From: an uncultured Solirubrobacterales bacterium
GTDB taxonomy: Bacteria > Actinomycetota > Thermoleophilia > Solirubrobacterales > Solirubrobacteraceae
Direction: 5' to 3'
Assembly: GCA_963775645.1 (NCBI GenBank)
Contig: CAVZJR010000001.1
Span: 169,956-233,955, forward strand
Length of the DNA stretch: 64,000 bases
Shown: one piece after another, positions 29,609 to 54,047 of the stretch
Layout of the letters: the number at the start of each line of letters is the position of its first letter
How positions within the stretch are numbered: position 1 is the first letter of the stretch
Position numbers and translations under genes: made by a program
The notes under the pieces: model-generated
What the model was told of the DNA's origin: nothing
What the model saw: only the letters and a program-made list of their open reading frames with translations
Databases searched by the model: none

Positions 29609-29609
29609 C

Positions 29610-30377: not shown

Positions 30378-30436
30378 CAATAGAATCAAAGTCCCGGACG
30401 CGTAGCTCAGTGGGAGAGCGCTCGCTTCACACGCGA
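30378..30436 (+). repeat. Promoter (ccaatagaatca) + 5' fragment of tRNA-Val (30396..30436), att-like junction
   Basis: Identical to 32682..32722 up to cacacgcga, then diverges. Confidence 0.9.
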
Positions 30437-30637
30437 AACGGCGGCTGGGCGTCGAACGCCGGATTTCCAGCGCCCGCCAGGGTCTTTGGCCTGTTGTCCG
30501 TCAAACGGATACGCCTGGATTGGGCGCGATATGACGGGGTTTGGGCAGCGGAATCGGGCTGCTGCCCAAACGCATAGATGTTCTCCGAGCTAGTCAACCT
30601 CTATGAACGCGTCTGGGTCCAGGGTGATGATGTTGCT

Positions 30638-31385
30638 GTGTCTTCAGCCGTGACCAGTGGCCTCTTTGGGCTTGGTGGCGTGGTGTTGGGCGTCGTGCTC
30701 AACGCGGTTTGGCTCCACGCGCACCCGCAAGCAGATCAGTGCGGAGGAGCGAGAGCGAGAGCGCCGACAGCGCGAGCTACTGGTCGCGGAACGGCTTGAC
30801 GAGGCCCTGGTGTACGCCTCGGCCGCACTCGACCGAGGCGTCACGCGTGAACGGGGCGCTCCTACGCTCGAAGACCATTACCGGAATGCGTACGATCACT
30901 GGGCAGAGGCCTGGGCCGCTTACTCTTCGCGTCTGCGTCAGCCGGAGCTACTGCGTCGCTACGAAACCATCGGGCCGCTGCTCATGGAGGTCGTGCACGG
31001 AGATCGCACCCCCGAGGAGATTCCGCGCCACGTGGTAGTCCGCGCCATAGCCAACGCTCGCGCAACACTCGCCTACTTCATGCGAGGCGAGGAGCGACTG
31101 CCACCAACCACATTCCCCCGAGCCGGACGAGTTGCGGCGCCTCCTCGGCGAAGGTGACGGCCAGATTGACCCGTCGCGTCCACTCAAGCAATGGTTGAGC
31201 CAGCACCCTATACCCAAGTTTCATCCCTCTTAAGCGGTCCACTGCCGGGGGCACGCTGGCATGATCGTGAGCCTCCGACCCTCCTGGTCGACTGGGCGTG
31301 GAGCGTCGAGCGTCCGATCCCGCGCGCGGGGCGCAACCAGCTGCCACCTGACCGCCACAACTTCCCGCCGTCGGCGCTGCCGTAG
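30638..31385 (+). CDS. Hypothetical protein, N-terminal TM + helical domain (indels)
   Basis: Contiguous coding-like pieces 30578..30799, 30657..31157 and onward; boundaries uncertain. Confidence 0.4.
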
Positions 31386-31471
31386 TCCTCGCGCGCCCTC
31401 GACCACCCACTCACGCCTCCCCTGAGTGCTGCCGCTCCCAGCACCGCCTCGCGTCCTGGGATCATCAGGCC

Positions 31472-31775
31472 ATGCCCAAGGACCGGATTCGGCGCTACCG
31501 CCTTGCCCCAGACGTGCGCGTCGTGATCCAGCGCTCAAGCGCTCATCCGGTCGAGTACGCGATCATGCTGCTCGTCGAGCGCGACGGGGAGTGGCACACA
31601 GTGCGCACCTTCGACAACGCCCACGATCCGACGAGACGAGCACCGCTACATCGGCTCCGAGAAGCAGAAGCCAATCGTCACGCATGGGTCCGTGAACGAC
31701 GCGATGCACGCCGCCGAAGTCAAGATCAGGGGAGGCTGGTCCGATATCGTTCGTAGCTGGGAGAACACTCGATGA
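31472..31775 (+). CDS. Small toxin-like protein (DUF7718/TumE-like), frameshifted
   Basis: VEYAIMLL..WHTVRTFDNAH motif; coupled to next ORF via ATGA. Confidence 0.45.
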
Positions 31776-32113
31776 GCGTCGTCTATGACAAGACCTGGGA
31801 TCTCTTTATGGCTGCGTCGCTCAGCGACGATGACCTCGGCTACCCCGATGAGGTCGAGTTCATTCCCGGGGATCAGGAGTGGGCCGACGAAGTGCTCTGG
31901 CGCAACCTCACCGAAGGCCATCCGACCGTCCTCGTCAGCGAGGATGCCGAGCTGCTGCTGCTCCCGCGGCCCCGCAGCCTGGTAGACCGGCTGCGGGGCC
32001 ACGTCGTCGTCAACGTTGCCCATCGCACCCACGGACACGCCTCGCCCTACGCGATTGCGGGCCGGTTGGGCCGCCATCCCGTGCGCCAGATGCGCGAGCT
32101 GGCCCACGCGTAG
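31772..32113 (+). CDS. Hypothetical protein, putative partner of upstream ORF
   Basis: 113 aa with acidic N-half; overlapping start. Confidence 0.5.
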   Translation: MSVVYDKTWDLFMAASLSDDDLGYPDEVEFIPGDQEWADEVLWRNLTEGHPTVLVSEDAELLLLPRPRSLVDRLRGHVVVNVAHRTHGHASPYAIAGRLGRHPVRQMRELAHA

Positions 32114-32681
32114 ACGTGCTTGCGCGGCGCGCGCAGTCCAAAACTCCAAACTACGCCCGACCAGTCCACTCGTCGGGCGCCGCACCCGGCACCCATGCTC
32201 GCGTGACGCCGCCACCATGCCCCCACCGATCGCCGCGAGACTAGATGACGACCTTAGGGTGCTTATATCCGACTATGAGCTGGGAACGCAAACAGCTATG
32301 GCCAGTATCGACATCGCTGCTCGGGTCGTCGTTGATCTGGTGATCGACCAAGATTCTGGCGCATTGCGATCACTCGCGACCGTCTCCCGCTTCGAGCCCC
32401 TTGACTGGGATACGAGGATGGACGCCACATAGCGTAGGGCGCGCTGTGGTATCAAGGCTCATCTGCGGTCGCCACCGAACTTCCGACAGGGGCCGACTGC
32501 AGGGCTCTCAGCTGCCCGCACTGGCGTGATTCGACGAGCAGACGGCTCCGTCGCGGCCTCAAGCAGCGCTTCAGCGCTCTCGTGAAGCGCACCTATCGGG
32601 CAGCAATGGGCAGCAGCTCTGCCTAGAGGGGCCATGCCGAGGCTGCCGGCAATGCGCAGGCCCAATAGAATCAGGGCCCCA

Positions 32682-32753
32682 GGACGCGTAGCTCAGTGGG
32701 AGAGCGCTCGCTTCACACGCGAGAGGTCGCAGGTTCGAAACCCGCCGCGTCCA
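32682..32753 (+). tRNA. tRNA-Val (CAC)
   Basis: GGACGCG/CGCGTCC acceptor stem, ctcgc-TTCACAC-gcgag anticodon arm, GGTTCGAAACC T-arm; TAGAAT -10 upstream. Confidence 0.96.
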
Positions 32754-33159
32754 TTTCCTTGTTTCCCCTGCAAATCGGCTGGTTCTTGCCCGTGACGAGT
32801 GTCGGCAGAGTTGGCTCAGATTTGTGGGCGGTGGGCTAAACGGTGGGCTAAAGTCCTGCCCGAGCCGCGATAAAGTCGCCCCTTTCGAATCAGGACAGGG
32901 ATGCCGGGGCTCACGATGAGATCGGCAACGCCAGCTACAACCGCTACGGGAAGGCTAGAATTGGCCTCAGCACTGGGCTTTGATGGCTCGCGGCAGGGCG
33001 TGCCACGGACTGACCCGTAAGGTTTCGAATGGACGAGTTCTCGTCCTGACAACGGTGGGTCGCTGAATCGATATAGATATGCAATGGCCTATCAGCTAAG
33101 TATTGCGATATCCCCCCCGAATATGCTGCATTTCGATTTTTCGCTATACTTAGAGAACA

Positions 33160-34172
33160 ATGCTTGATAATTCTATAGCGCAAGCTGCTCTGATCGCGCT
33201 CCGCCCTGACGTCGACCCCCAGGTCGCAGATGCGTTTGCCCGCCTACCCGATGTGAATGTGGTCGGTAACGCACCGGAGTCCGCCGTGATAGTCGCCGGG
33301 CAAGCCTTTCCCGTAGAGGTCGAGATCGTCGAGAACCGCGCGTTGGCCGGGCTGCTTGAGGGTGACGGGGCTGATGGTAGGCGCCTGGTGATGATCAAGG
33401 CCGTACTGGACGACGTAACGGCCGCTCGCCTCCAGGACGCCGACATCGGCTTTGTGGATGGCGCCGGTCGGGCTTGGCTTCCCGGCCAGACGCTGACCAA
33501 GCGCACACGCGACCGACTGCCAGCCCGCCGGCGTGCCCTACGCGCAGGCAGCCTGCGGCCCGCACAGCTGATCTCCGACCACCCCGAGGAAGCCTGGACG
33601 ATCCGGCAGCTCGCCGAACGAAGCTCTAGCAGCGAGGTGACCGCCCATCGCCTGCTCAAAACCCTGGAGGAGGCGCATCTGATCGAGCGACATGGGCATG
33701 GGCGCGGGATGCAGCGGCATGTGATCGATGTCGAGGGCGTGAGGCGCTGGCTCGCCGAGCATGGCCGTCCCTCCTCCCCGCAGCGATTGACGTGCTTCGT
33801 GCGAGATCCCGACGCGATCCCAGAAGCTGTCGCCGGTAATCAGATAATTCTCACCGGCGCCTTGGCGGCCGAGCGGATGGGGCTGCCGGTACTGACCGGG
33901 GTGCAGCGCCCGCTGTACCGAGTACAGGCTTCCGGTGAGGATCTCGAGCAGATCCCTCGAGCGCTCGGTGGATTTCGCACGGATACGGGGAGCCAACCTC
34001 ACGCTGATCGCCGATCCGGACCACCTGGCCGGCAGCGACGCCCGCACCGATGCAGATGGACGAATGTCTGGCTCCGCCCAGCCGAGTCATGCTGGACCTG
34101 TACCTCGAGCCCAGGGGAGAGGCCGCGGTCGGAGTCTTCCTCGATCTGTGGGGATCGAAGGACATCGCGTGA
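33160..34172 (+). CDS. Type IV TA antitoxin-like wHTH protein (AbiEi-type), indels near 33990 and 34065
   Basis: GFVDGAG, wHTH WTIRQLAER..AHRLLKTLEE, C-terminal VMLDLYLEPRGEAA; GTGA overlap with next gene. Confidence 0.65.
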
Positions 34173-35053
34173 CCAGCGAGATCAAGCACCCACCGAACGC
34201 GTTGATAGGCGAGGTGGCAAGCCTCTTCCATCTCCTCGGAGGCATGGCTGCCAAGCATCTTGTCATCGTCGGCGGCCTAGTTCCTCCGCTGCTTGTCCCG
34301 GAAGCTGCCGATGCGCACATCGGCAGCGCGGACATCGATTTGTGTTTGTCGCTCGCCATCACCGGCGGCGCAACGCGCGAGTACTACCGCTCGATAGAGG
34401 AGATCATCGAGCGGTACTTTGAGCCAGAGCGCGCAAGCGGATTTCGCTGGCGCAAGAAGCACGGTGCACCCGGCCTGCCCCTCGTCCTCGACTTCCTCTC
34501 GCCCGCCGCGGAGGACGACACGATCCTCGCCAGCGGAACACGCGGGCTTGATCAAGAGACAGCAGCCCAAAACGCCGGTCCACACCTTCGCCCGTTGCCA
34601 ATCCGCGCCGGTGGACTGATCGACGAAGACGCCATATCGAGCACCCTCGAAGGTGTACCACTCGTGTATCGACCCGGAGCGCGAGCCGATGTTCAAATCC
34701 GTCACGCTGGCCCGGTCGGATTCCTCGCTGCCAAGGCCGACGCTCTCGCAGGCCGCGACGATTCCAAGGACGGCTACGACGTATCCTGATGGTGCCTCAA
34801 CGCTAGGCCGTCCGGCACGGAGGTAGCCACCCTGGTCACCGAACGACCCGCCTTCAAGCAGGAGCTCTTTCAGGAGAGCATGGCGCAACTACACGCCGCT
34901 TTCCGCGCTCCTGACTACCCCGGACCAGACGGCTACGCCCGGGAGAAGCACCCAGATCTTCAGCCGGGCGACGAGGAGTACGAGCAGGATCGTAACGCCG
35001 CATACGTGGTTGTTGGGGAGGTCATTGGGATTCTTAAGGAACAACTCTGGTAG
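34169..35053 (+). pseudogene. AbiEii-like nucleotidyltransferase with in-frame TGA at 34787
   Basis: VIVGGLVP, SADIDL, LAAKADA, KDGYD; reading frame resumes after the TGA and runs to TAG 35053. Confidence 0.7.
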
Positions 35054-35345
35054 CACGCCGCTTACCTCAGCCACGCACCGGACAGAGCCAACTGTCGAAC
35101 CCGGTGTCCCCCTCGCCCGTGCTTACCTCTCGGTAGCGAATGCGGAAGTGCGCCTCGCCCTGTGCCAGATGCCCGGATCTCGTCCAAAGCGATAATGCCC
35201 CAGCGTGTCGTTGAGACGACTGCTTTGCCACCGAAGTGGGCAGCAGCCCGACCACGCGACACCGCACCCGTGATGTCCACGATCCTCTCCCTCGTCGGCT
35301 GGGAAGCGGTGCGGCGCGAGGCTCAGAAACGCCTATTGGCGCGGA

Positions 35346-36248
35346 CTACGGCAGCAACTTGCAGAGGTAGGAGACGGCTACCGCGGCGGCAGCGATTACG
35401 GCCTCCGCTATCTCCTGCGGCACGTCGTGGGGTGCTTCACCCGCGCCGTGCCCGCCGCGCTTGTTGCGTGGCGATGCGGCGGCAAGGACGCAGTACTCCA
35501 TGAACCGCGGAACGATTTCGGCGTTCACGAGGTGGTCAAAGAGCTTGAAGGCGGCGTCCTTCTCGTCGTACGGCACACCGCGCTGCGTGAGCAGCACCTT
35601 CATCGCGCCCTCAACGGCGCAGGCCGACTCGTGGACTGACTGGCGCAGCGACGTTGGCGTGCCGAGCGCCAGCTCGGAGCGGGCCGCGTCAAAGTGGCTC
35701 CTGGCGCCGAGGAGCCGCAGGTCTTCTACCGCGCTCAGCGCTGGGCGCATCGCGGACATCTCCACCTCCGCGTCGCCGATCCAGCGGAACCCCTCGCTCG
35801 CCGTAAACTCCCACGGGATGCCACGCCTGCGGCAGATGCTCGTGATGCGCTCAACAGGGCTAGTGGCGAGTCGTTGCTGGCGAACCGCCTCAAAGACGGC
35901 GCCGCGGAAGTCCGGCTCGGGCATGTGGAGCAACACCGCGTTTGCCGCTCGCTCTTCCGCGCGCTGTGTGTCACCGACGGCGACGATCGTTGACTGTTCG
36001 TTGATGGCGCGCGTGAGGGCGCTGTTCATGCGATCAGCCGGTGCGTCGCCCCAAACTTCGCGGATGCCCCGCGAGTAGTCGTCCACGTTCGCGTAGCGAT
36101 CCGTCAGGAACCCGTTCAGCACAGCGCGTTCCGGGGCGCCTTCCAACGTGTGCAGGATGAGCTGCCGGGCGTCCCTGTCCATACCGGTCGCCGGCCGCTG
36201 GGTTGCCGTGTCAAGCATTGGGTTCGCCGCGTTCATCGTGGTCATCAC
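35346..36248 (-). CDS. Abortive-infection-like protein with C-terminal HEPN/Abi_C-type domain
   Basis: SACAVEGAMKVLL and RNKRGGHG (RxxxxxH-like) motifs. Confidence 0.65.
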   Translation of the reverse strand: MMTTMNAANPMLDTATQRPATGMDRDARQLILHTLEGAPERAVLNGFLTDRYANVDDYSRGIREVWGDAPADRMNSALTRAINEQSTIVAVGDTQRAEERAANAVLLHMPEPDFRGAVFEAVRQQRLATSPVERITSICRRRGIPWEFTASEGFRWIGDAEVEMSAMRPALSAVEDLRLLGARSHFDAARSELALGTPTSLRQSVHESACAVEGAMKVLLTQRGVPYDEKDAAFKLFDHLVNAEIVPRFMEYCVLAAASPRNKRGGHGAGEAPHDVPQEIAEAVIAAAAVAVSYLCKLLP

Positions 36249-36349
36249 AGTAGCGGCCTGCTCACGCGGTTAGTGAAGGCGCAAACCGCCTGGGGTCAGT
36301 GGCCGGCCGCGGAAGCGGTTATCAACACTGGCAACGATAAGGTACTTCG

Positions 36350-36848
36350 TGTGCCGATTTCCGAACTAGTCCAAGCACTGACTGAGAACAACCTCTCCGC
36401 GGAGGAGGTATATGGCTTTGAGCACGCTGGCGTATTGGGGCTGATACCGGATCGCGTCTACAAGGTTGATGGGCAGCTCGTCGCGTCCTTCCGTCCTGAC
36501 GCGCAGGCGATCCGTGTCGCTGCTCAAGCGGCCGGCATAACGGTGGAGATGGTGGCGCCCGACGGTGCCGAGTTTGCCATGCGCTCGCAATACGCGGTTG
36601 ATTGGGTACTGCCAGTACTGGCGGGGGCCACAGCCGGCGTTCCGTGTCAGATTCTGGCGACACTGATAGCTGCCCGAATCGAAGGCTGCATGCGACGGTC
36701 GGAGAAGCCGCCCGAGGTTGCGTTCCGCGAGGTGATCGTTGAGGACGGCAAGGTGCAGGAACGGGAGTTGCGGGGTCCAGCACGAGAGGTCGAGCAGTTG
36801 CTACGCAAGCGTGCGGAGTTCGGGGACGACTCGCGGAGCGAGCCATGA
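36350..36848 (+). CDS. Hypothetical protein with one hydrophobic segment
   Basis: Part of ORF 36150..36848; ATGA-coupled to next gene; start uncertain. Confidence 0.5.
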
Positions 36849-37609
36849 GCAGGCTCATGATCACGTCCGAGTTCCAAATGAACGGGACAACCGCTCTGAT
36901 CAGCGGTGCGGCGCTCTACGAGGGCGAGCAACGGCCCGATCCAGCGGCACTGCGTCGGCGCGGGCAACGTCGCGCAACCCACGGCCTCGTCGTGCTGGAG
37001 CAAGCCCCGAGTCGCGCAGAGGTGCTGCTCCGTCAAGCGATTGAGGACATGGTCGATGCCTTCCTCCTCGACCGTGTCCAGAATGCCGACCTTTTCGCCC
37101 GCGCCCACCAAATCGGTGCCCTCATAGAGCAAACCTTCTCCTGCGCGTGTGTAATTGACCGCGACCACGGCACCCTTGTGAACGACTGCGGAATCTTGGC
37201 CCTTCATAGCCGGCTTGGCTTGAGCCCGGGCGGCACCACTTGGGGGCATTGCTCGCTCTGCGGCGAAAAGGACTTCATGTGCGATCACATACCCGGCTCC
37301 GTCTACGAGGGCGAGAAATGCGTGAGAAATATCGATCGCTGGGACGCAGAGGAGGTGTCGATGACTCAGAGACCGCGCGAGCCTCGGTGCTTTCGCACTT
37401 GGGCGCACACCAAGGACTCCTATGCGAGACGCGTGGGGGGCAACACGCCCGGACGCTGTTGGCACTGTCGCACATGTCGAGGGCGAGGGGGACCAACTAC
37501 CGATAATCTCGATCCGGCTCAGTGGTCGGATGACGGTTGGAAGATGCTTGAGGCGGCGATTGCAGTCGCCCAACACGCAGTGACGCGCCCATCAATCATC
37601 AATGACTAA
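36845..37609 (+). CDS. Cys/His-rich putative Zn-binding protein
   Basis: CSLCG..CDHIPG..Y.G..C and CWHCRTC. Confidence 0.6.
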   Translation: MSRLMITSEFQMNGTTALISGAALYEGEQRPDPAALRRRGQRRATHGLVVLEQAPSRAEVLLRQAIEDMVDAFLLDRVQNADLFARAHQIGALIEQTFSCACVIDRDHGTLVNDCGILALHSRLGLSPGGTTWGHCSLCGEKDFMCDHIPGSVYEGEKCVRNIDRWDAEEVSMTQRPREPRCFRTWAHTKDSYARRVGGNTPGRCWHCRTCRGRGGPTTDNLDPAQWSDDGWKMLEAAIAVAQHAVTRPSIIND

Positions 37610-38262
37610 CCGCGAATGGGGCGTCATGCTACCGGCGTTGGTTCTGGCTCGGTGACGGACCTCACAGGGACCCTGTCACTCCTGCGTTGTTCCATCACCT
37701 ATTCCGCACCTTCACCGGGTGAATATGACCCTGACCGAAATGCCCGGAGTCGCGTCCTCGGGTCAAGTGACGAGCAGCTTGTACTTCCGGCTGACGCTCT
37801 CGGATAGGGTCACCTAGAGCTACACCGACCTAGCGACCCGCCACGCTAAGAAGGGCCCGATTAGCGAATCGGCCTTCAGCTGAATACCCGTCGCCAAACA
37901 GCCAGTGTCGGCTCTACCTACCGGGAGGCACAGTCAGTAGAACTTGTGCTTTCCCGGCTGAGCGAGCGTCTGAGCATCGCCTGCGCTCACGATCGCAAAG
38001 GACGAGGAGCAGAATTCCGTCGCGCTGAGTCGCACACTCCCGCTTGGACGACGACCAGGTGGAAGGTGCGGCGAATGCTTCCATTTCGTCTGGCGCAACC
38101 GGTGCGTCGCTCCTCAGTCGCCGGGCCCGAAGGTCGTACGGGGCACGTGCCTTCCCAGAAGTCAATCGAGATAGCCGCGCAGATCTGCCCGTGCCGGCGT
38201 CTAGCCTTGAGGAGCATGGTGATCGATGGCAAACACGCAGCGCGGCTAGCGGGCAGGCGGCC

Positions 38263-39966: not shown

Positions 39967-40255
39967 GGGCGCCACCCCACTGGTCCACTACTGCTCCCAT
40001 TCGGCGAGCAGGCGCAACCAGCCTCGCGATCGAGACGCCCGAGCTGGACGAACTCGGAGCGTATCGTCCGGCGCTCTCAGGACGCCTGCTTTCGCATCGG
40101 GGAGCAGAAGCACGGGTTCGACGCCAGTTCGCAGCTGGAGTTCGCCGGGACCAGGTGCCGACAGTCCGGACGGACGCGACGACCGGAATGTGGTCGGGTA
40201 CGATTCGCGGGTGCGCTCGTCACGGTGGTGCCGCAGAAAGGGTCCGTTCACGATT

Positions 40256-42679: not shown

Positions 42680-42884
42680 TCAGACCGGTGCCGTAGCCAA
42701 AAAGAGGCGAGCCTGCGCAGCCCGGCGGAGACCGCCGCATCGCGCGGGTAAGGAGTTGTCTCGACCGACTCTCCGTGGACTGCTGGTCCGGACGATCTGC
42801 AAGCACGCCGACCGAGGATCGGCACACATCCGCTCGCGTCAGGCGAAGCGCATCGGCTCCCAGATCGCCTGGCGCTGCGGTCGG

Positions 42885-44404: not shown

Positions 44405-44500
44405 ATTCGTGACAATATCACCGCTCCCGGATGCCAGGGTTCGTCGCTGCGATGGGTAGCCGAGGGAAGGTGTTTCAGCCCGCCTCGCCGACCGCACGTC

Positions 44501-45013
44501 TCAGAATGGCTCTCCTCGCAGATCGACGCGTCCGGAGGGCCACCTGGCTTCGTCGTCGAGCGCCTTCCACATCGCTCGCAGGGGCATCTCGATCCGGCCG
44601 CCGGGCTGGTCGGCCCATACCGGCGCATCGATCGCCACGAACCCGAACTCGCGGTAGAACGGCATCAGCTTCGGTACGCAAAAGAGCATCGTTCGCCGCG
44701 CCTCGAGTTCGCCCGCAAGCTCGATCAACCCGTGGCAGAGCATGCGTGCCAGTCCGCGCCCTCTCTCGCTGCGAGTCACGATCAGGCCACCCAGGCCCGC
44801 GACCTCGAAAGATGGCTCCCGCTCGATCCTGACTTCCGCAAGGACCACGCCGGCGGCAGCGACCAACCTGCCATCGTCCTCACGAACTCCGACGTTCCGA
44901 GTCTTATCCCGCCAGAGCAGATCTTCGCCGATGCCACCAAACGGCTCGCGCTCGCCGGCCACCAGCTCCTCCCAGTAGGGCTCCGCGAGCCTGTCCAGCT
45001 CAACCAGCCGCAT
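44501..45013 (-). CDS. GNAT acetyltransferase
   Basis: ERGRGLAR, FYREFGF. Confidence 0.8.
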   Translation of the reverse strand: MRLVELDRLAEPYWEELVAGEREPFGGIGEDLLWRDKTRNVGVREDDGRLVAAAGVVLAEVRIEREPSFEVAGLGGLIVTRSERGRGLARMLCHGLIELAGELEARRTMLFCVPKLMPFYREFGFVAIDAPVWADQPGGRIEMPLRAMWKALDDEARWPSGRVDLRGEPF

Positions 45014-45338
45014 CGCTTCACTGTAATGTGGCCTGCCCGCCGATGATCGGAGTGTCACACAGCACGACCAGCAGCCAAACCGGCTTGACGCCCGGCCTGC
45101 CCGTAGCGACGCACGTCCCCAACACTGATACAGCGCCCTCATGCCGAAGACGAGAGCATCCCCAAGGGGCTGCACAGGACGCCGTATGGACGCCGCCCGA
45201 CTTTAGCCCACCGGAGCCGTTTAGTGGGCTAAATCCACGGGGAACTCCAGGGTATCTACGGGGATCAACAGATCGGAGCACGTTCTGCATGTGGCTTGTT
45301 AGAGCCGTTTCTTGCGCTTCCTCAAACCTTTCCCAGGC

Positions 45339-45385
45339 CGCTTCACACGCGAGAGGTCGCAGGTTCGAAACCCGCCGCGTCCATT
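45339..45385 (+). repeat. tRNA-Val 3' fragment (attR-like)
   Basis: Identical to 32709..32755. Confidence 0.95.
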
Positions 45386-45503
45386 GGTCGTTTCCTCTTT
45401 ATTCAAGCCAATCCCGCCCATAAGTTCAGGTCTCTGACTGAGCTAATATCGGCCGGTTGGTGGGCAAAAGTGGCAAAAGTACAGCCCGTCATATGGTCCG
45501 CAA

Positions 45504-45524
45504 AAGTCAAGCTATACTTGTCTT
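45504..45524 (+). promoter_or_regulatory. TATACT -10 box inside an imperfect inverted repeat; probable leaderless, autoregulated promoter
   Basis: aagtcaag-ctata-cttgtctt directly before ATG 45525. Confidence 0.5.
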
Positions 45525-46124
45525 ATGACGGACAAGCACAGACCGGACATGCTCGGGCTTGAGGCCGAGGCATTTCAACAGAGCGGCTACTTCAATGCTG
45601 GTCAGGCCCGCGCGCATGGAGTTAGCCGCCAGCTCCTGGAGCATCACGTACGACGAGGGCGCGTCGAACGCATACGACGCGGGCTCTACCGCGTCCACTG
45701 GTTTCCGACCGTCGAACACGACGACCTGCGTGAGGCATGGATGGCTATCGGCATACCCGATGCGCTCATATCTCACGAGAGCGCTCTCGCACTACTCGAT
45801 CTCAGCGACCATATCCCTAATGCCGTTCATATCCTCGTGTCGCGGCGGCACCGAGGACTGCGCCCACCGTCCGGCGTCGTCGTTCACACCCGCCCCGACA
45901 GCGAAGATGTCCCCACCGTTTGGCGCGACGGTCTACCACTGACCGCTCCTGCGCGAAAACTGGCCGATGTTGCCGACCGGCTTCAGCCTGACCAGATGTC
46001 GATGGCTGTACGCCAAGCTCTGCATCGCGGACTGGTGACGGTAGACGAGCTACAAGAGGAAGCCACCCGTCGCGGCAAAATGCAACTGATCGACTTCATT
46101 CCGGATACGGACGCATACGTGTGA
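45525..46124 (+). CDS. AbiEi antitoxin
   Basis: QQSGYF, RIRRGLYR, ISHESAL. Confidence 0.88.
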   Translation: MTDKHRPDMLGLEAEAFQQSGYFNAGQARAHGVSRQLLEHHVRRGRVERIRRGLYRVHWFPTVEHDDLREAWMAIGIPDALISHESALALLDLSDHIPNAVHILVSRRHRGLRPPSGVVVHTRPDSEDVPTVWRDGLPLTAPARKLADVADRLQPDQMSMAVRQALHRGLVTVDELQEEATRRGKMQLIDFIPDTDAYV

Positions 46125-46568
46125 AGTACGCCAGCGCTGTCGCGTTCCGCCAAGCGCTCGATCAGCGCCTTAAGAATGAAGCCGCCAACACCGGTCTCGG
46201 AGTGGCCCGTCAGCGCAAGCGTGTCGCTTTCGAGCTATTCCTACGCCGCCTGCTGGTCGTAGCCCCAGATCGCTGGGTGCTCAAGGGCGCATTGGCTTTG
46301 GACTTCCGCCTCGCCGTCGCGACGCGCTCCACCAAGGACATCGACCTTGGACGGGACGATGACGAGCAGACTGCAACCCGCGACGTCGCCGCCGCACAGC
46401 AGCACCTGGGCCGGCCCTTACGGGCGCTTGGCTGAAACAGTCTCTGTCGAGAGCAACCTATCCAGCGCCTTTACCCGCGCGAGCGCATTCCTCGACCCTG
46501 TGCTAGGTGGGTACGCCCGCGGAGGATGGGAGTCGCGCCGCCGCAAATGGGTCACACACACTGGATGA
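46121..46568 (+). pseudogene. AbiEii toxin with internal deletion
   Basis: N-terminus (WVLKGA, TKDID) joined near 46405 to C-terminal FLDPVL..W; middle (EK, KD motifs) missing versus 42885..43787. Confidence 0.8.
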
Positions 46569-46792
46569 CCAACGGGTCTGGACGACCGTCCCCCGCCAAC
46601 GAACTGGCGGTGTAGCCCGACAGGTAGGACCCAGGCGTCCGGCGCCACGGCATGCAGGCGTGCGAGCAGGCGCTCAAGGTTCCTTCGGGTTTCAAACCCC
46701 GCCTAGTGCCGTAATCGCTAACGTATTCCAGCATCTGGTACCTTGCCTGTCGATGGCCTGGGGGCAAGTCGAGAGATGAAGCGCTGAGACAG

Positions 46793-49636
46793 ATGGCACG
46801 TTTGCGCTGGGGCAGGGTCGTACCAATATGCCGTAAGAGCTCATCTTTCCTACTCACTGCGCGAGCATCGCGCATATTCGCGGTGCTCGCTACGATCGCC
46901 CTCCCGCTGGGCTTCGCACCGAGCGCCCCTGCTGACGGAACAACCCAGATCACCGGGACGGTGACGAGTGCCGTCACGAAGGCGCCGATAAAAGGGGTCG
47001 AAGTCTGCGAGTACCCGGATGAAGGAGGCACCGGGGACAGGTGCACCCAGACCGGCCCGAGCGGCGAATACGTCCTCGAAGTGGGCCGTGGCGGGGAGTT
47101 CGTCGTCTACTTCGACACGACCGTCGAGGGGCTCGTCCCCCACACTTTTTACAACGGGGTCTTCGTCGACCATGAAGCGACCCGTGTGCAGGTCGCCGAA
47201 GGCGAGACGGTGTCCGGTATCGATGAGGCCATCCAGAAAGGCGGCCTTATCACCGGCCGCGTGCAAAACAAGTCGACCAAGGCTCCGATCCAGGGAGTCC
47301 AAGCCTGCGCGGAATTGCCGGATGTCGACCAATCGGGGGTGGAACCCCACCGGACGTGCGCCACGACGAACGTCAGCGGGGAATACGAGATCGCGGGCCT
47401 CACGCCCGGCGAGGGAGAGCCAGAAGGCGGCTATGCGGTTGAATTCACCAGCACGCTGGACTACATCAAGCAGTTCTACGGTGGCGGGCTGGAAAACTAC
47501 TCGTCCACACTGATCCCGATCGTCCTGGGCGAGACGGTTCCGAACATCGACGCAGAACTGGAAGAAGGCGGCGAGATCGCCGGCAGGCTCGTCAGCGCGG
47601 CCACGAAGGCCCCCATCGAAGGCGTGCGGGTGTGTGCCAGCCTTCCGCAACACGGCGAAATCTGCGCCAGAACGAACGCGAATGGCGAATACGTGATCTC
47701 GAGACTGGCAAGCGGTCAATACGCGGTGTGGTTCGGTAGCCCGACTGTGAATGGGGTTGAATACATCGGGCAGTACTACAAGGGAAAGGAATGGCCCAAC
47801 ACCGAATCCGTGGAAGTAGTCGCGCCAAATACCACCACGGGAATCGACGGGGAACTGAAGGCACGCGGCCAGATAGCGGGAATCGTCACCAGCAAACTCA
47901 CCCACGAACCGATAGCGGGCGTAAAGGTGTGCACCGAATCGCAGACGCCGGGAGGGTCCTACGAAACCTGCGAAAATTCCAACTCAAAAGGCGAATACGA
48001 GATTCCCGGACTGCTGGCAGGTAACTACGCGCTGGCCTTCTGGGCTACGCGGATAAACGAAGAAGGATCGAACTACCTCAGTCAACCGCATGGCTACGCG
48101 ATCAACCCTCAGGCCAATTCAGTATCGGTTGCGATGGGATCGACCACGACCGTCGATAACGAACTGGTGGCGGGGGGCAGCATCAGCGGCGAAGTGACGA
48201 ACGTCAAGACCAAACAGCCCGCCGGTGGTGGGCCGTGCGTCGAAGATCTCTCTCAGCCCGATCCGCACCTGGCCCAAACATGCGCGCTCTCGATGTCGGA
48301 AGGGAAGTACACCATCTCCGGACTCCAACCCGGCGAATACCGGGTCGTGTTCGCGAACGACTTCTCTCCCGGTGACGAATTCTACAAGCAGTATTGGAAT
48401 CATGTGAGCTCGGAATCCGAAGCGACGCCAGTCGTGATCTCTGAAGGCAGCACGATCACGGACATCGACGCCGCGCTCGAAGAACGCAAGCCGTATTACG
48501 GCGAGGGTATCGAAGGTCGCGTAGTTGAAGCTGCCACAAACGCCAGAATCAAGGGCATAGAGGTCTGCGCCTATGCAACGAGCAACGGCATCGAACCGGA
48601 AGGGTTGTACGGCTCGTGCACAGAAACCAACGCGGCGGGCGAATACGCTCTTCTAGATCTGAGCGCTAGCACATATGTAATCGAATTCAGTACACCGTTT
48701 GGCAGCGAAGTCAATTACGTGACCAGCTACTTCAACGAAACCGCGTCCGCCGCCGACGCTACTCCGATCACGATCGAAGCACACACGATTCGCACCGAAA
48801 TCGACGCTTCACTGCATCACGGCGGTCGTGTGACGGGCAGAGTGACCTCGGCAGCGACGGACACTCCGATCGACGGTATCGTCGCCTGCGCACTCGGCAT
48901 GAACACGGAAAGCGTGGGATGCGCCGCGACGAACAGAAACGGCGAATACACTGTGTCGGGGCTTGCCACCGGCTCCTACACGGTCGGGTTCTCGGCGCCG
49001 TCTGAAAGCGACCTCAACTACCTGACGCAGTATTACAGCGGGCAATCGTCCGTAAGCACCGCCGATCCGGTGACGGTGAGGGTAGAAGAAACGATCTCGG
49101 GGATCGACGCGGAACTGGGCACGACCGCTTCGGGACCTCCAGTTGTTCATCAGCCCCCACCCGTGTTCACTCCGCCCGTACCTGCTTCTCTACCCCTAGC
49201 TGCGGTCACGCCTTCCAGCGCGCCGGCGAACATCGGCACGGAGACTGGGCTGTCGTCGACAAGCGCCCCCACGCCGAGCGCCAATGGCTCGAGCAGCCCG
49301 CTCGTGGTGCTGGCCTCGACAGTCGTCGTGTCCGGAAGCTCGGCGTCGATACATGTGAGATGCGACAAACAGGCGTGTCACGGGTCGGCGGAGCTGGTCA
49401 TGCAGATCGTGACGAAGAGCCGCAGGGCGGGGAAGATGGTTTCGCACACGGCAACGCTCGTACTCGCCCGAGGATCGTTCTCACTGGCGGACGGAAGCAC
49501 CGACTCCGTCGCGCTGCGGCTGACCGAGTCGGGCATGAAGCGGCTCGCCCACGCTGGAATCCACCCGATTGCCGCACGATTGACGTTTGACCTGCAGGGC
49601 AGGAAGCCGACCACCAGGCCGGTGCTGGCAAGTTGA
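46793..49636 (+). CDS. Secreted carboxypeptidase-regulatory-like (CnaB-type) repeat protein
   Basis: Signal peptide; repeats IxGxVxSxxTKAPIxGVxVC..TNxxGEYxIxGL..GIDAEL; basic C-domain. Confidence 0.85.
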   Translation: MARLRWGRVVPICRKSSSFLLTARASRIFAVLATIALPLGFAPSAPADGTTQITGTVTSAVTKAPIKGVEVCEYPDEGGTGDRCTQTGPSGEYVLEVGRGGEFVVYFDTTVEGLVPHTFYNGVFVDHEATRVQVAEGETVSGIDEAIQKGGLITGRVQNKSTKAPIQGVQACAELPDVDQSGVEPHRTCATTNVSGEYEIAGLTPGEGEPEGGYAVEFTSTLDYIKQFYGGGLENYSSTLIPIVLGETVPNIDAELEEGGEIAGRLVSAATKAPIEGVRVCASLPQHGEICARTNANGEYVISRLASGQYAVWFGSPTVNGVEYIGQYYKGKEWPNTESVEVVAPNTTTGIDGELKARGQIAGIVTSKLTHEPIAGVKVCTESQTPGGSYETCENSNSKGEYEIPGLLAGNYALAFWATRINEEGSNYLSQPHGYAINPQANSVSVAMGSTTTVDNELVAGGSISGEVTNVKTKQPAGGGPCVEDLSQPDPHLAQTCALSMSEGKYTISGLQPGEYRVVFANDFSPGDEFYKQYWNHVSSESEATPVVISEGSTITDIDAALEERKPYYGEGIEGRVVEAATNARIKGIEVCAYATSNGIEPEGLYGSCTETNAAGEYALLDLSASTYVIEFSTPFGSEVNYVTSYFNETASAADATPITIEAHTIRTEIDASLHHGGRVTGRVTSAATDTPIDGIVACALGMNTESVGCAATNRNGEYTVSGLATGSYTVGFSAPSESDLNYLTQYYSGQSSVSTADPVTVRVEETISGIDAELGTTASGPPVVHQPPPVFTPPVPASLPLAAVTPSSAPANIGTETGLSSTSAPTPSANGSSSPLVVLASTVVVSGSSASIHVRCDKQACHGSAELVMQIVTKSRRAGKMVSHTATLVLARGSFSLADGSTDSVALRLTESGMKRLAHAGIHPIAARLTFDLQGRKPTTRPVLAS

Positions 49637-52600
49637 TGCTTCAACGCGTGCGTGCTGCGGTGAGCCTGCGTGCTACAGGGCGGGGGGCCGCTGTCTTTGG
49701 CGTTGCGCTGGCGCTCGGGCTGGCCGCGGCGTCGCCGGCTGGGGCCAGCCCGTGGACAACAGCGACCAACCTCTCAGAAGAAGGCCAGAACGCATTCGCA
49801 CCCAAGGTCGCAGTTGACGGCGTGGGCGGCGCGATCGTCGTGTGGACGCGCTATAACGGCAGCAAGGACGTCGTACAAGCGGCGCTCAAGCCCGATGGCG
49901 AACCCTGGGGCAAACCAGCCACCCTCTCCGAAGCAGGCCAGGAAGCATCCGAACCCCAGGTCGCAATGGATCCCGCGGGCAACGCGGTCGTCGTGTGGCG
50001 GCAGTTCAACGGCAGCGACTACGTCATACAAGCGGCCGTCAAGCCCGATGGCGAACTCTGGGGCAAACCAGCCACCCTCTCCGAAGCAGGCCAGGAAGCA
50101 TCCGAACCCCAGGTCGCAGTGAATCCCGCGGGCGACGCGGTCGTCGTGTGGCGGCGCTTCAACGGCAGCGACTACGTCGTACAAGCGGCCGTCAAGCCCG
50201 CGAGCGAACCCTGGGGCAAACCAGCCACCCTCTCCGAAGCAGGCCAGGAAGCATCCCAGGCTCATGTGGCGGTGGACGGCGCCGGAGAAGCGACCGCCGT
50301 GTGGAGGCGCTACAACGGAAGCGACCATGTCATCCAGGCGGCGGAGGAGCCGGCTGGTGAATTGTGGAGCAAACCAGCCACGCTCTCCGAAGCGGGCCAG
50401 GAAACATATGAACCACAGGTCGCCGTGGACGGCGCGGGCAACGCAACCGCTGTCTGGGGGTACGACAAGGAATACCTCGACTCATTTGTGCAGGTTGCGG
50501 TCAGACTGACGGGCGGGCCCTGGGGCAAGCCGGCGATCCTCTCCGAAGCAGGCCAGGAAGCATCTGAACCCCAGCTTGCGGTGGACGCCGCGGGCTACGC
50601 GGCCTCCGTATGGGATAGCTTCGACTACGGTGACTGTTACTGCGTGCAGACGGCGGTCAAGCCGGCGGGCGGAGCCTGGGGAGGAACGGACTGGCTCGCG
50701 AGCGGCTACCACCCACGAGTTGGAATCGACGACGCCGGCGACACAATGGCGGTCTGGAGTGAATACTCCGGCCCCGGCGACATCGTGCGAGCCGCGCTTA
50801 AACCGGCAGGCGAATCTTGGGGCGTTGCAGCCAAGCTCACAGAAGCAAACGCGGAATCCAATCCCCAGGTTGCGATGAACGCCGCAGGCGACGCGACCGC
50901 AGTGTGGACAAGCCAGATCGGCCCTGGCCTTGGCCTCGACAACTACGTCGTGCAGACGGCACAGTTCTCCCCCTCCAGTGCGTTCACGATCGAAACGCTT
51001 CAGAAGCTCTCGAACGAACCCACCTACACCAAGACCGAACTGAACGGCAAAGTCGCTGACACTGTGGACTACGAGATCGTCGTCAAGAACACTGGCAGCA
51101 CGAGCTTGAAATTCGGGGCGCTGAAGGACGGCGCATGCGAAAGCATTAGTCCCGCCGGTCCCACGGAACTCGAAGCCAGCACCGAAGAGACCTTCACCTG
51201 CACTCACAAACTCACGGCCTTTGTCAAATACAGCAACGAAGCGTCGATCGAAGGCGACCAAGGAACCAGCACCAAAACGTCCAACGGAGTGGCTGTGGCG
51301 TTGGCGCCCGTCTACGAAGCGCCCGCGGGAACGGCTGACTCAAGCAGCGGTACTTGTGTGGAATTGCGCACTGCTGTCTTTATCTGCTCGGACCTGCGAG
51401 CAGCGGTGGCCTATGCGAATGCCGCTCCAGGCTCGACGGTAAAGCTTGAACATGGTGTCTATCAGCTTGGTGAAGCGCACGGGTATCCGTCTGGAACGCG
51501 TGCCTTTCTCGAAATCACAGCGAGCGTCACGATCCAAGGCCCAGGACCCGGAGAGACGACGATCGAACAGACGGACGGCCGCGATCCGGTGATCGTCATC
51601 CCATATGACGCCAGCTTCTCGCGGATCCAGATAGAAGGCATTAAGCTCACCGGCGGTGTAGCAGCGGGTAACGACGACGGTGAATTCTTTGGCTGGGAAC
51701 AGGGTGGTGGCGCGCTGAGGATCCTGGGCAGCGGGGCACCAGCCTCCTCGGTCACGCTCACCGACGACGATCTCACCGGCAACCTCGCGCACGCCAAAAA
51801 CGCCAAGGGGGGCGCGATCTTCAACAAGCGCACACTCAACGTCATCGACTCTACCGTCGCGCACAACACCGCGCTCGCCGAGGGCGCCGCCAACAACACC
51901 GAACTGGGCGAAGCCAACGGTGGTGGCATCTTCAACCTTGGTCATCTGCTCATCGCAGGTTCGACGATTACCGACAACACGGTTGAAGCGGGTGGCGTCA
52001 ACAGCAAGGCGGTGGGTGGTGGTGTAAACAGCGGTGTCGAAAACTTCACCAGCGAAGCCACTGCTGCGATCGCGAACACGACGATCACCGGCAACACCGC
52101 CAGCGCCGGCACCACCACTAACCCGCCGCTCGTCTACGGCGGCGGCATCGCCATAGACGGCGGCGCCCTCAACCAGGTGACTCTCTATGGCAACACCGCG
52201 AGCCCAGTGAACGCGTCGGAGTCATGGGGCGGAAACGTGTACGAGCCTCAGGGAGGCGGCGCCTGGATCAATAACTCCATCCTCGCCGACGGTAGCGCGT
52301 CCGAAGGACCCAACTGCATGTTCACGAGTGGCGGGTCCAACGCGGAAGACAATCGCAACGACCTCGAGAACGATCCCAGCGCCGAATGCGGCTTCTCGGT
52401 CGACTACAGCTCGCTCGTCGGCATCAGTCCAGAATTGACGCCACTTGCAGATAATGGCGGACCAACCGAAACACTCGCACCGATGCCGAGCAGCCCCGCG
52501 ATCGACGCCGGAGCTGGATGCGAAGGGACCTTCGCAGAGAGCGGCTCGGGCGGCTGGACGACCGCGACGGTTCCTCTCGATGTCGACCAGCGCGGTATGC

Positions 52601-53430
52601 CCCGCAACGGTCACTGCGATATCGGCGCCTTCCAGACACAGCCGCCATTCGCGACCTCGCCGCCAGAAATCTCGAGTGATCCCGAAGTCGGTCACACGCT
52701 CACCTGCGATCCAGGCTCGTGGACCGGGGAAGGAACGCTCTCCTATAGCTACGAATGGCTGCGCGACGGAGTCTCAAGCGGCGATCAGACGACGGCTTAC
52801 ACGGTCCTCCCCGCCGACGCCGGCGCTCAGCTCGCCTGTCTGGTCACGGTCACCGGAACGTACGGCCCCACGGAAGCGACGAGCGCTGCGCTGGAGGTGC
52901 CCAAACCCCCGCAGAGCCCTCCGAGCCGTCCTCCGGAAGATCACTCTGGCCCTGCCGGCTCCAGTGGCGACAGCGACGGCGCTCCAGACAGCGACGCGGG
53001 ATCGCCGCCGACCGCCGACAGCGGTGCCGAGGGCACCGGGACAAGCGAGCCAGCCAACGCAAACTCCGCGCAAGTCGCGACCCTACTAGCCGCGCAGCTC
53101 GCACCCTCGCGGAGTGCGTCAAAGATCGCTCAGCTGGTCAGGCGCGGTGGACTGACGATCACGTTCACGGCAGCACTACCCGGCACCGTCACAATCGACT
53201 GGTACCGGATGCCAGCGGATAAGGCGCACGCGACCAAACCACTGCTCGTCGCCACAGGACGCTACACCTTTGCGGCCGCCAGCGCCGCAAAGATCAGAAT
53301 CAAGCTGACTGCCTCTGGCAAACTGCTGCTGCGACACTCCAGCCAGCTCAAACTCACAGCCGAGGGAGCGTTCACGTCGATCGGGAAACCAACCGTCAGC
53401 GTCTCAAGGACGTTCTACCTCAACTGGTAG
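49633..53430 (+). CDS. Large secreted multidomain protein (propeller repeats, beta-helix/choice-of-anchor-Q-like, Ig-like)
   Basis: WGKPATLSEAGQEASEPQVA repeats; LADNGGPTET..SPAIDAG..DQRG..CDIGAFQ; GHTLTCDPGSW. Confidence 0.85.
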   Translation: MMLQRVRAAVSLRATGRGAAVFGVALALGLAAASPAGASPWTTATNLSEEGQNAFAPKVAVDGVGGAIVVWTRYNGSKDVVQAALKPDGEPWGKPATLSEAGQEASEPQVAMDPAGNAVVVWRQFNGSDYVIQAAVKPDGELWGKPATLSEAGQEASEPQVAVNPAGDAVVVWRRFNGSDYVVQAAVKPASEPWGKPATLSEAGQEASQAHVAVDGAGEATAVWRRYNGSDHVIQAAEEPAGELWSKPATLSEAGQETYEPQVAVDGAGNATAVWGYDKEYLDSFVQVAVRLTGGPWGKPAILSEAGQEASEPQLAVDAAGYAASVWDSFDYGDCYCVQTAVKPAGGAWGGTDWLASGYHPRVGIDDAGDTMAVWSEYSGPGDIVRAALKPAGESWGVAAKLTEANAESNPQVAMNAAGDATAVWTSQIGPGLGLDNYVVQTAQFSPSSAFTIETLQKLSNEPTYTKTELNGKVADTVDYEIVVKNTGSTSLKFGALKDGACESISPAGPTELEASTEETFTCTHKLTAFVKYSNEASIEGDQGTSTKTSNGVAVALAPVYEAPAGTADSSSGTCVELRTAVFICSDLRAAVAYANAAPGSTVKLEHGVYQLGEAHGYPSGTRAFLEITASVTIQGPGPGETTIEQTDGRDPVIVIPYDASFSRIQIEGIKLTGGVAAGNDDGEFFGWEQGGGALRILGSGAPASSVTLTDDDLTGNLAHAKNAKGGAIFNKRTLNVIDSTVAHNTALAEGAANNTELGEANGGGIFNLGHLLIAGSTITDNTVEAGGVNSKAVGGGVNSGVENFTSEATAAIANTTITGNTASAGTTTNPPLVYGGGIAIDGGALNQVTLYGNTASPVNASESWGGNVYEPQGGGAWINNSILADGSASEGPNCMFTSGGSNAEDNRNDLENDPSAECGFSVDYSSLVGISPELTPLADNGGPTETLAPMPSSPAIDAGAGCEGTFAESGSGGWTTATVPLDVDQRGMPRNGHCDIGAFQTQPPFATSPPEISSDPEVGHTLTCDPGSWTGEGTLSYSYEWLRDGVSSGDQTTAYTVLPADAGAQLACLVTVTGTYGPTEATSAALEVPKPPQSPPSRPPEDHSGPAGSSGDSDGAPDSDAGSPPTADSGAEGTGTSEPANANSAQVATLLAAQLAPSRSASKIAQLVRRGGLTITFTAALPGTVTIDWYRMPADKAHATKPLLVATGRYTFAAASAAKIRIKLTASGKLLLRHSSQLKLTAEGAFTSIGKPTVSVSRTFYLNW

Positions 53431-53479
53431 ACACATGCTCACACCACCGAAACGTTTAGGCCAGTGGACCGCGCATTGG

Positions 53480-53660
53480 CTTGACCGCGTCCCGAACTCC
53501 AGAGCGGCGAGCAGATCGTCGCGTTCGAGCCCTGAATGATCGGCGACGATCTGCTCGATCGTCATGCCCGAGGCCAGCAGCTCCAGCAGGCTCTCGACCA
53601 GGCAGCGCAGACCACGGATCGTAGGCTGCCCGTGGCAGACATCGGGTCAGTGGTGATTTT
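53480..53660 (-). pseudogene. DUF433 (VapB45-like antitoxin) remnant
   Basis: Manual translation ITTDP/DVCHGQPTIRGLRCLVESLLELLASGMTIEQIVADHSGLERDDLLAALEF; frameshifted, no start, abuts att. Confidence 0.75.
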
Positions 53661-53667
53661 CCCGGAC

Positions 53668-53713
53668 CGCTTCACACGCGAGAGGTCGCAGGTTCGAAAC
53701 CCGCCGCGTCCAT
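53668..53713 (+). repeat. Second tRNA-Val 3' fragment (attR-like)
   Basis: Identical to 32709..32754. Confidence 0.95.
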
Positions 53714-54030: not shown

Positions 54031-54047
54031 TGCAGATACCGTTCCGG

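What the first reader, a model, noticed from the sequence alone, without database searches (positions are those of the whole stretch)
30378..53713. Two-sided tandem array of integrase-less islands at one tRNA-Val anticodon att core
Seen: four copies of the core cgcttcacacgcga (30423, 32709, 45339, 53668). One belongs to a promoter+5' fragment, one to the intact tRNA and two to 3' fragments. They divide ~23 kb into islands of about 2.2, 12.6 and 8.3 kb, and I recognise no tyrosine or serine recombinase in any of them. Known: tyrosine integrases often cross over in the anticodon loop and can accrete in tandem. Inference: non-autonomous cassettes are loaded on both sides of the tRNA by an integrase acting in trans, making a tRNA-anchored, integron-like platform for defence and surface genes.
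Basis: partly seen in the sequence, partly recalled or inferred. Interest (0 to 1): 0.85.

Follow-up and report, generated by a model that had tools for sequence, protein, structure and literature searches.

The report
Decayed islands flanking one tRNA-Val
Three blocks of foreign DNA sit on both sides of one valine tRNA gene in a soil bacterium; they are likely leftovers of mobile elements that arrived with their own integrases and lost them, a known way genomic islands grow, though one integrase-dead block has likely still moved between species.

Summary
In detail: four copies of the 14-nt core bound islands of 2,286, 12,630 and 8,329 bp, and no intact recombinase lies in them. The integron reading does not hold. 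Relatives in the same genus (Solirubrobacteraceae) carry islands at this site with their own tyrosine integrases, from at least seven groups: two restore the tRNA 5' half plus promoter (left side), five the 3' half (right side). Island 1 matches an integrase-bearing left island of G089 minus its integrase. Island 2 has the same arm repeats as an 80.7-kb element with integrase, coupling protein and relaxase (G154), and holds an 80-nt integrase remnant (42837-42916). Island 3 has lost its right arms. This fits the known CIME / tandem-accretion model. Two twists remain. The site is used in mirror image from both sides (8 of 55 relatives read). And island 2's ends, with the same integrase deletion junction, are 96-97% identical in G047, whose core genes share only about 60% of fourfold sites, so the integrase-dead form has likely moved with a helper. 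No cognate helper was found in this 79%-complete genome. Novelty is modest.

The parts
28961..30272 (+). Conserved left flank: FKBP-type PPIase and a 200-aa ORF (not part of the islands)
   Evidence: Pfam FKBP_C; precede the tRNA in most relatives read
30381..30436 (+). attL of island 1: original -10-like box TAGAAT (30381-30386) and displaced tRNA 5' fragment (30396-30436)
   Evidence: promoter role inferred from conservation (the sigma-70 scan found no site)
30540..30570 (.). Inverted arm-type pair of the left (L) class, TTTGGGCAGC-N11-GCTGCCCAAA
   Evidence: shared with integrase-bearing left islands of G089, G011, G151
30657..32113 (+). Island 1 cargo: 166-aa ORF, DUF7718-like ORF (weak, E 9e-4) and 113-aa ORF
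   Evidence: 79-84% nt to G089's left island; two-gene module 92-93% to G009, G151
32576..32681 (+). Right end of island 1: last ~35 codons of an L-group integrase, direct arm pair (32597-32615) and the island-supplied -10-like box (32666-32671)
   Evidence: ALV..AAMGS frame matches the G089 integrase tail by eye; 78% nt
32682..32753 (+). Intact tRNA-Val(CAC); inferred 5' half from island 1, 3' half from island 2; overlap in the loop TTCACAC (32712-32718)
32831..32851 (+). Direct arm-type pair of the right (R) class, GTGGGCTAA x2 (attL of island 2)
   Evidence: same motif and position in integrase-bearing G001, G002, G014, G097, G242, G353, G379
33160..35060 (+). HTH protein plus AbiEii-like nucleotidyltransferase, a predicted type IV toxin-antitoxin pair capping the integrase-less left end; reading frames broken by indels in this assembly
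   Evidence: HTH_IclR; Atlas 0.97 to AbiEii clusters for the G160 homolog; no PADLOC hit; 25 of 400 genus genomes
35346..42679 (.). Island 2 variable cargo: DUF7014-like ORF, two unknown ORFs, Mrr_cat-domain protein (38044-39966), secreted-looking repeat protein (to 42679)
   Evidence: replaced by other cargo in G047
42837..42916 (-). Remnant of a D-group tyrosine integrase (helix following the catalytic Tyr), fused to the end of abiEii
   Evidence: 86-93% nt to 9 relative loci, E to 1e-24; same junction in G047
42885..45175 (-). AbiEii, AbiEi and GNAT genes
   Evidence: Pfam and PADLOC
45203..45232 (.). Inverted R-class arm pair (attR of island 2)
   Evidence: same in G154's 80.7-kb element
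45339..45384 (+). Core plus tRNA 3' fragment: junction of islands 2 and 3
45386..45505 (.). Left end of island 3: B-group integrase tail (minus strand) with a variant direct arm pair (45460-45477)
   Evidence: tblastn 40-44% over 54-58 codons, partly the tRNA itself
45525..53430 (+). Island 3 cargo: AbiEi, truncated AbiEii, CarboxypepD_reg/SdrD-repeat protein (947 aa), 1265-aa surface-type protein
53487..53658 (-). DUF433-type gene fragment (family recognised from recall) abutting the core; the right arms present in G164 are deleted
   Evidence: 88-90% nt to G164; alignment shows a gap of several hundred bases over the arm region
53668..53713 (+). Outermost core plus tRNA 3' fragment (armless attR of island 3)

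Best explanation
This is a composite genomic island of three integrase-less elements at one tRNA-Val(CAC) anticodon loop, likely built by successive site-specific insertions of elements that each brought their own tyrosine integrase and later lost it by deletion (CIMEs). Mechanism: the integrases likely cross over in the 7-nt loop. Right-class elements carry the tRNA 3' half and push older ones downstream; left-class elements have the same att layout in mirror image, carry a promoter plus the 5' half, and so sit upstream. Internal deletions removed integrase and transfer genes but spared the arm sites in islands 1 and 2; island 3 also lost its right arms. Islands 1 and 2 are predicted to stay excisable only when a related element supplies the matching integrase (L group for island 1, B or C group for island 2), most simply by inserting next to them and carrying them along (cis-mobilisation). 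Toxin-antitoxin pairs near the ends would help retain them. Shown: ends, arms, remnants, parent-like elements in relatives, cross-species identity. Inferred: crossover point, arm function, order of events, mobility.
For: (1) Of 54 att-bounded islands in 34 relatives, 9 have an integrase in one frame, 14 split or partial, 31 none (G100's integrase crosses the att and was missed by my filter, so 10/14/30; one 'partial' is G047's unrelated small recombinase): a decay series. (2) In 10 of 10 right-side tandem arrays with any integrase, the tRNA-proximal island has the most of it, the rule reported for CIMEs (PMC7563491, passages). (3) Island 1 is colinear with G089's 3.5-kb left island, which has an intact integrase. 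(4) Island 2's arms match B- and C-group elements; G154's 80.7-kb element has the B integrase, a VirD4/TraG-type coupling protein, a TrwC relaxase and the same right arm; G242 and G353 have integrase plus coupling protein. (5) Integrase remnant at 42837-42916. (6) Both R-class arm pairs and the L direct pair occur only here in the assembly. (7) Fourfold-site identity to G047: core 31/50 and 30/53; island 2 genes 174/174, 66/74, 132/155, 119/132, 84/87.
Against: No excision, circle or empty site was observed; no run holding this organism was found (best share 0.26) and laid contigs showed no attP joint. Arm function rests on conservation and position only. The relatives were chosen for multiple cores or for the island-2 module, so the proportions are not genus-wide. 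G047's left genes (89-100%) and right genes (85-97%) differ in divergence, so its island may be a mosaic, not one transfer. The assembly has indels even in dnaX, so frameshifts here and 'split' integrases in relatives may be sequencing errors. No VirB4 was seen among the 59 proteins scanned from the three parent-like elements, so ICE versus IME is open.
Confidence: 0.8

Rival explanations
1. Island 2's lineage is a true non-autonomous mobile family: arms plus a toxin-antitoxin cap, excised and re-integrated on its own by a B/C-group integrase acting in trans from a co-resident element. This is compatible with the best explanation and differs only in how the dead form moves.
For: The left end runs straight from tRNA through arms into the HTH gene, with no room for an integrase, in G047, G192, G164, G358 and G203 (83-98% nt). 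No island with this left end and both ends seen (G047, G141, G153, G160, G164, G262, G310, G043) holds a cognate integrase. The same module with related arms sits at tRNA-Arg(CCG) in G309, G351 and G023, a tRNA that B-group integrases also target.
Against: Cis-mobilisation gives the same end state once the helper excises alone, and helpers lie in tandem with such islands in G141, G153, G160 and G164. No oriT-like match to G154's relaxase region was found. No circle was seen. The module also occurs away from a typical left end (G415).
Confidence: 0.3
2. An integron-like platform: one resident integrase loads cassettes on both sides of the tRNA.
For: Variable content across relatives; defence-type and surface cargo; many integrase-less islands.
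Against: Two unrelated arm classes; at least seven integrase groups at the site; integrases lie inside islands and are absent at sites without islands (G017, G016, G020, G087); no B-group integrase in G000 (cut-off 1e-60; best identity about 28%); the closest L-group relative (C1:728928) sits in a tRNA-Ala island without these arms.
Confidence: 0.05
3. Fully dead scars, inherited or spread by homologous recombination, with no further site-specific mobility.
For: Island 3 lacks right arms; no helper found in the assembly; synteny with G017 and G008 resumes only about 55 kb further on, so the area is a graveyard of older accessory DNA.
Against: Similarity to G047 starts at the tRNA and ends at the 3' fragment, while flanking core DNA is only 74-82% identical; arms are intact in islands 1 and 2.
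Confidence: 0.12
4. Misassembly at tRNA repeats.
For: No reads of this organism could be laid; the assembly has indel errors.
Against: Repeats are at most 47 nt in a 1.07-Mb contig; the junction types recur in independent genomes: 5' fragment to island 1 (G089), tRNA to island 2 (G047, G192, G358), island 2 to 3' fragment (G047), and the whole two-sided integrase-less layout (G262).
Confidence: 0.03

Closest known systems
CIMEs and tandem accretion of ICEs/IMEs (ICESt1/ICESt3 model; PMC5704250 and PMC7563491, passages read)
   Same: Integration and transfer genes lost, att ends kept, 1-13 kb cargo islands, most decayed elements farthest from the target gene, cis-mobilisation by a related element.
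   Different: Here the array extends on both sides of the gene through an anticodon-loop core, no functional partner is present in the assembly, and the host is a Solirubrobacteraceae soil bacterium.
Islander tDNA islands (PMC4383910, parts 1-2 of 3 read)
   Same: Anticodon-centred attP (2083 of 3919 islands), 5'-fragment islands (159 of 3919), tandems (125 of two or more, 4 of three or more), integrase genes extending across attP (Mx8, SSV).
   Different: Islander requires an integrase in every island, so this array would be rejected; a 5' and a 3' island on the same gene is not mentioned in the parts read.
Dehalococcoides ssrA genomic islands (PMC3146451, passages) and Prochlorococcus tycheposon islands (bioRxiv 10.1101/2020.12.28.424599, passages)
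   Same: Tandem islands at one RNA gene across a genus; 15 ssrA islands without integration modules; new elements push old ones outward and leave fragmented integrases.
   Different: One-sided in the passages read; different integrase families and hosts.
Integrons (features recalled)
   Same: An array of variable defence and surface cargo at one site.
   Different: No fixed intI, no attC hairpins looked for or needed; lambda-type arm sites; multi-gene islands in both orientations; several integrase groups.

Membership tests
CIME | No functional integrase or transfer genes | tested here: met
   No PF00589/PF00239 match in the window; no relaxase or coupling-protein family among 31 window ORFs scanned; assembly indels could hide short genes
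CIME | attL and attR retained | tested here: met
   Core plus both arm pairs for islands 1 and 2; island 3 keeps the cores and left arms only, so it meets this in part
CIME | Derived from an ICE/IME by deletion | tested here: met
   Island 2 ends match G154's element with integrase, coupling protein and TrwC relaxase; island 1 matches integrase-bearing G089, for which no transfer genes were seen
CIME | Cis-mobilisable by an element inserted in tandem | not testable with these tools
   Indirect only: helper-plus-island tandems in G141, G153, G160, G164 and cross-species identity
Integron | Fixed integron integrase next to the insertion site | tested here: not met
   None in the window; none at island-free sites of G017, G016, G020, G087
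Integron | One recombinase and one class of cassette site | tested here: not met
   Two arm classes in the window; at least seven integrase groups at the site in relatives
Integron | attC sites that fold as single-strand hairpins | not tested
   Not folded; junctions are tRNA halves with double-strand arm repeats
Islander-type tDNA island | tRNA plus displaced end fragment in the correct configuration | tested here: met
   5' fragment upstream, 3' fragments downstream, same strand
Islander-type tDNA island | Own integrase in each island | tested here: not met
   Remnants only

The most novel reading that the evidence does not exclude
Solirubrobacteraceae host a genus-wide family of integrase-less, toxin-antitoxin-capped satellites built on lambda-type arm sites. 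They are moved in trans by B/C-group integrases of conjugative elements, cross species boundaries and switch between tRNA-Val(CAC) and tRNA-Arg(CCG), whose anticodon stems match and differ only in the loop. A mirror-image family does the same on the 5' side, and mixing the two can mint extra complete tRNA genes (four in G192).
Probability: 0.3. Interest if true: 0.55.

Novelty: new variant of a known kind. Interest (0 to 1): 0.3.

Why it matters
It gives a clean natural test set for how integrase-dead islands keep moving: named arm sites, cognate integrases in relatives, and a dead island shared by two species with near-saturated core divergence. It also shows one anticodon loop used in both orientations, a layout that integrase-requiring island finders miss. 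It does not reveal a new recombination system.

Tried and rejected
Pfam PF00589 and PF00239 over the genome: nothing in the window. tblastn of the genome's own 18 recombinase frames against the window: no significant match in the part of the output shown, which was cut. A profile of cognate integrases did not detect the remnants. No B-group integrase in G000; no matching arms beside other G000 integrases. G047's internal recombinase is a small Xer-like protein about 30% identical to the host Xer proteins, taken as cargo, though a role cannot be excluded. Sequencing runs: none holds the organism; four soil or rhizosphere contig sets cover short pieces of island 2 at 99-100% and show no circle joint; uncovered parts prove nothing. 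Two metagenome pattern scans found nothing. One viral contig with the 3' half looks like a chimera with an unrelated phage and was dropped; no viral relative of the B integrase. The sigma-70 and terminator scan found nothing. The idea that the last core is a secondary site inside the DUF433-type gene was dropped: G164 shows the arm region deleted between that gene and the core. Core-only junctions between right- and left-class elements were sought in G192 and not found. Williams 2002 (PMC100330) is not held. Searches for a two-sided array in print found none; the library lacks most subscription journals.
Full report
Observation. The 14-nt core occurs exactly four times, at 30423, 32709, 45339 and 53668, and nowhere else in the 2.8-Mb, 78.7%-complete assembly. 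ARAGORN finds one tRNA-Val(CAC) at 32682-32753. The first copy ends a 41-nt 5' fragment preceded by the same TAGAAT box as the intact gene; the last two begin 45-47-nt 3' fragments. Spacings are 2,286, 12,630 and 8,329 bp. No PF00589 or PF00239 match lies in the window, against 15 and 4 elsewhere in the genome. A relative's record title names the family Solirubrobacteraceae.

The site in relatives. The FKBP gene was found in 37 of 41 genomes searched. I read the locus or an island-2 match in 55 same-genus genomes, chosen for the FKBP match, multiple cores or the island-2 module, so they are not a random sample. At least seven integrase groups use this site (tree, labels B, C, D, E, F, G, L are mine; placement). 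L and E restore the 5' half and bring a promoter box; the rest restore the 3' half. Islands on both sides of the gene occur in 8 of the 55 (G003, G009, G011, G023, G064, G089, G151, G262); G262 has an integrase-less island on each side, like the window. Across 401 genomes, 46 of the 349 with a match have two or more copies of the 5' half (hand count; this includes the unpublished G405 among the 46 and G056 among the 349, and it includes whole-gene duplicates). Of 54 islands with both ends seen, in 34 genomes, 9 have an integrase in one frame, 14 split or partial and 31 none. G100's integrase crosses the att and was missed by my filter, giving 10/14/30. In 10 of 10 right-side tandem arrays with any integrase, the island next to the tRNA has the most of it. 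Island-free sites (G017, G016, G020, G087) have no integrase beside them.

Anatomy of the ends. Right-class elements have a direct pair GTGGGCYAA about 75-90 nt past the tRNA 3' end and an inverted pair about 118-139 nt before the distal core; these are shared by integrase-bearing B and C elements and by integrase-less islands. Island 2 has both (32831-32851, 45203-45232). Left-class elements have the mirror layout with another motif, TGGGCAGC: direct pair beside the promoter, inverted pair at the far end. Island 1 has both (32597-32615, 30540-30570). The R pairs and the L direct pair occur only here in the assembly; one other L inverted pair lies at C2:213906. That these repeats are arm-type integrase sites is inferred from position and conservation, by analogy with lambda att sites (recalled). 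The mirror layout suggests that left-class elements integrate in the opposite orientation at the symmetric anticodon stem-loop and so must supply the 5' half and promoter.

Each island is a deletion derivative. Island 1 matches G089's 3.5-kb left island at 79-84% over its cargo; G089 has an intact integrase in the place where the window keeps only the last ~35 codons. Island 2's arms match G154's 80.7-kb element, which encodes a B integrase, a VirD4/TraG-type coupling protein, a TrwC relaxase, ParB and RecA; G242 and G353 have integrase plus coupling protein. Inside island 2, 42837-42916 is 86-93% identical to D-group integrases in 9 relative loci. It is the helix after the catalytic tyrosine, fused to the end of abiEii. 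Island 2 is therefore probably two fused elements; G164's first island has the D integrase, AbiE and GNAT pieces and a similar right end. Island 3 keeps a B-type left end but has lost the right arms by a deletion relative to G164.

The dead form has likely moved. The island-2 left end (arms, then HTH plus AbiEii-like nucleotidyltransferase) matched 25 of 400 genus genomes. In G047 both ends are shared (97.4% over 1.9 kb from the tRNA; 96.2% over 2.6 kb to the 3' fragment), including the same integrase deletion junction, while the middle differs (23.7 kb in all) and flanking core DNA is 74-82% identical. Fourfold sites: core 31/50 and 30/53, island genes 174/174, 66/74, 132/155, 119/132 and 84/87. 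For G192: core 43/53, 30/51, 51/92 against 171/173 (island 2) and 61/64 (island 1). Against a single recent transfer: the two halves differ in divergence, and modules can be swapped by homologous recombination. The same module with related arms also sits at tRNA-Arg(CCG) in three genomes, a target of other B-group integrases. No B-group integrase was found in G000, and its closest L-group relative lies in a tRNA-Ala island without these arms. So no helper is on record now, with a fifth of the genome missing.

Mechanism. Shown: cores, arms, remnants, parent-like elements, polarity, cross-species identity. Inferred: loop crossover, successive insertion, loss by deletion, retention helped by toxin-antitoxin pairs (AbiE is named as an ICE stabiliser in PMC11062541, of which I saw only the search listing), and occasional remobilisation by an incoming related element. 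Cis-mobilisation needs no new assumption: a helper inserts at the tRNA, the composite excises and transfers, and the helper later leaves alone. Helper-plus-island tandems exist in G141, G153, G160 and G164. Trans action stays possible and is untested. No reads of this organism were available and laid contigs showed no circle joint.

Comparison with what is known. The definition of a CIME, an element that lost integration and transfer genes but kept attL and attR, and the three-step accretion model are in PMC5704250 (passages). PMC7563491 (passages) gives CIME sizes of 1.2-13 kb and the rule that the most decayed lie farthest from the target. Islander (PMC4383910, parts 1-2 of 3) lists 159 of 3919 islands with 5' fragments and 125 tandems. 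Similar arrays are described for Dehalococcoides ssrA (PMC3146451, passages) and Prochlorococcus (bioRxiv 10.1101/2020.12.28.424599, passages; supplements not seen). PMC9897764 (passages) added only that integration leaves tRNA fragments. I found no paper on an array on both sides of one tRNA, but Williams 2002 was not available and may cover it. Earlier notes of this scan reached the CIME reading for other genomes; they are unchecked and are not counted as support.

Verdict. A real, well-delimited CIME array; not an integron. New variant of a known kind because of the mirror-image two-sided use and the evidence that an integrase-dead island crossed species. Interest 0.3.

Noticed in passing
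L075:7355-7426, L075:15674-15745, L076:4766-4839, L077:11920-11991 (G192); L042 (G067): Four complete tRNA-Val(CAC) genes in tandem in G192 and two in G067, separated by islands; G276 has four and G131 three copies of the 5' half. A 5'-restoring element entering a displaced 3' fragment would create such extra genes, but no core-only junction was found.
   Followed up: partly
L096-L114 (G154, G242, G353, G283, G049, G390, G282, G349, G059, G083, G379): One integrase group (B; 62-86% identity) targets three tRNAs, Val(CAC), Arg(CCG) and Ala(CGC); its reading frame runs across the att into the antisense of the tRNA, as reported for Mx8 and SSV integrases.
   Followed up: partly
G000 C1:723735-740008 (outside the window): tRNA-Ala(TGC) has three tandem 3' fragments with integrases in the first two islands and none in the third; other tRNAs (Met, Lys, Leu, Pro, Arg) also have displaced fragments.
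   Followed up: partly
L017 (G021), L038 (G157), L053 (G117): The tRNA plus its right-side island is inverted relative to FKBP, with the 3' fragment next to the 200-aa ORF.
   Followed up: no
L040:1968-2016, L055:10706-10756, L086:1990-2006: A degenerate tRNA-Val-like stretch lies inside the coding region upstream of FKBP in G097, G139 and G310.
   Followed up: no
G000 C2:213906-213933: A lone L-class inverted arm pair about 7 kb from tRNA-Thr(TGT), with no integrase match nearby.
   Followed up: no
window 53714-61000 and on to about C1:278600: Accessory-looking DNA (STAS protein, 21-nt repeat proline-rich ORF, CsrA, ECF sigma factor with partner ORFs) continues about 55 kb past the last core before synteny with G017 and G008 resumes; 56-61 kb is shared with G117.
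   Followed up: partly
window 25500-26900, 33160-35060, 42876: Frameshifts in dnaX and in island genes; the one at 42876 is absent in G047 and in two soil contig sets, so indel errors in the assembly are likely.
   Followed up: partly
L102:6992-10703 (G242): ThiF, JAB and patatin genes in a row inside a B-group element, a CBASS-like layout (recalled).
   Followed up: no
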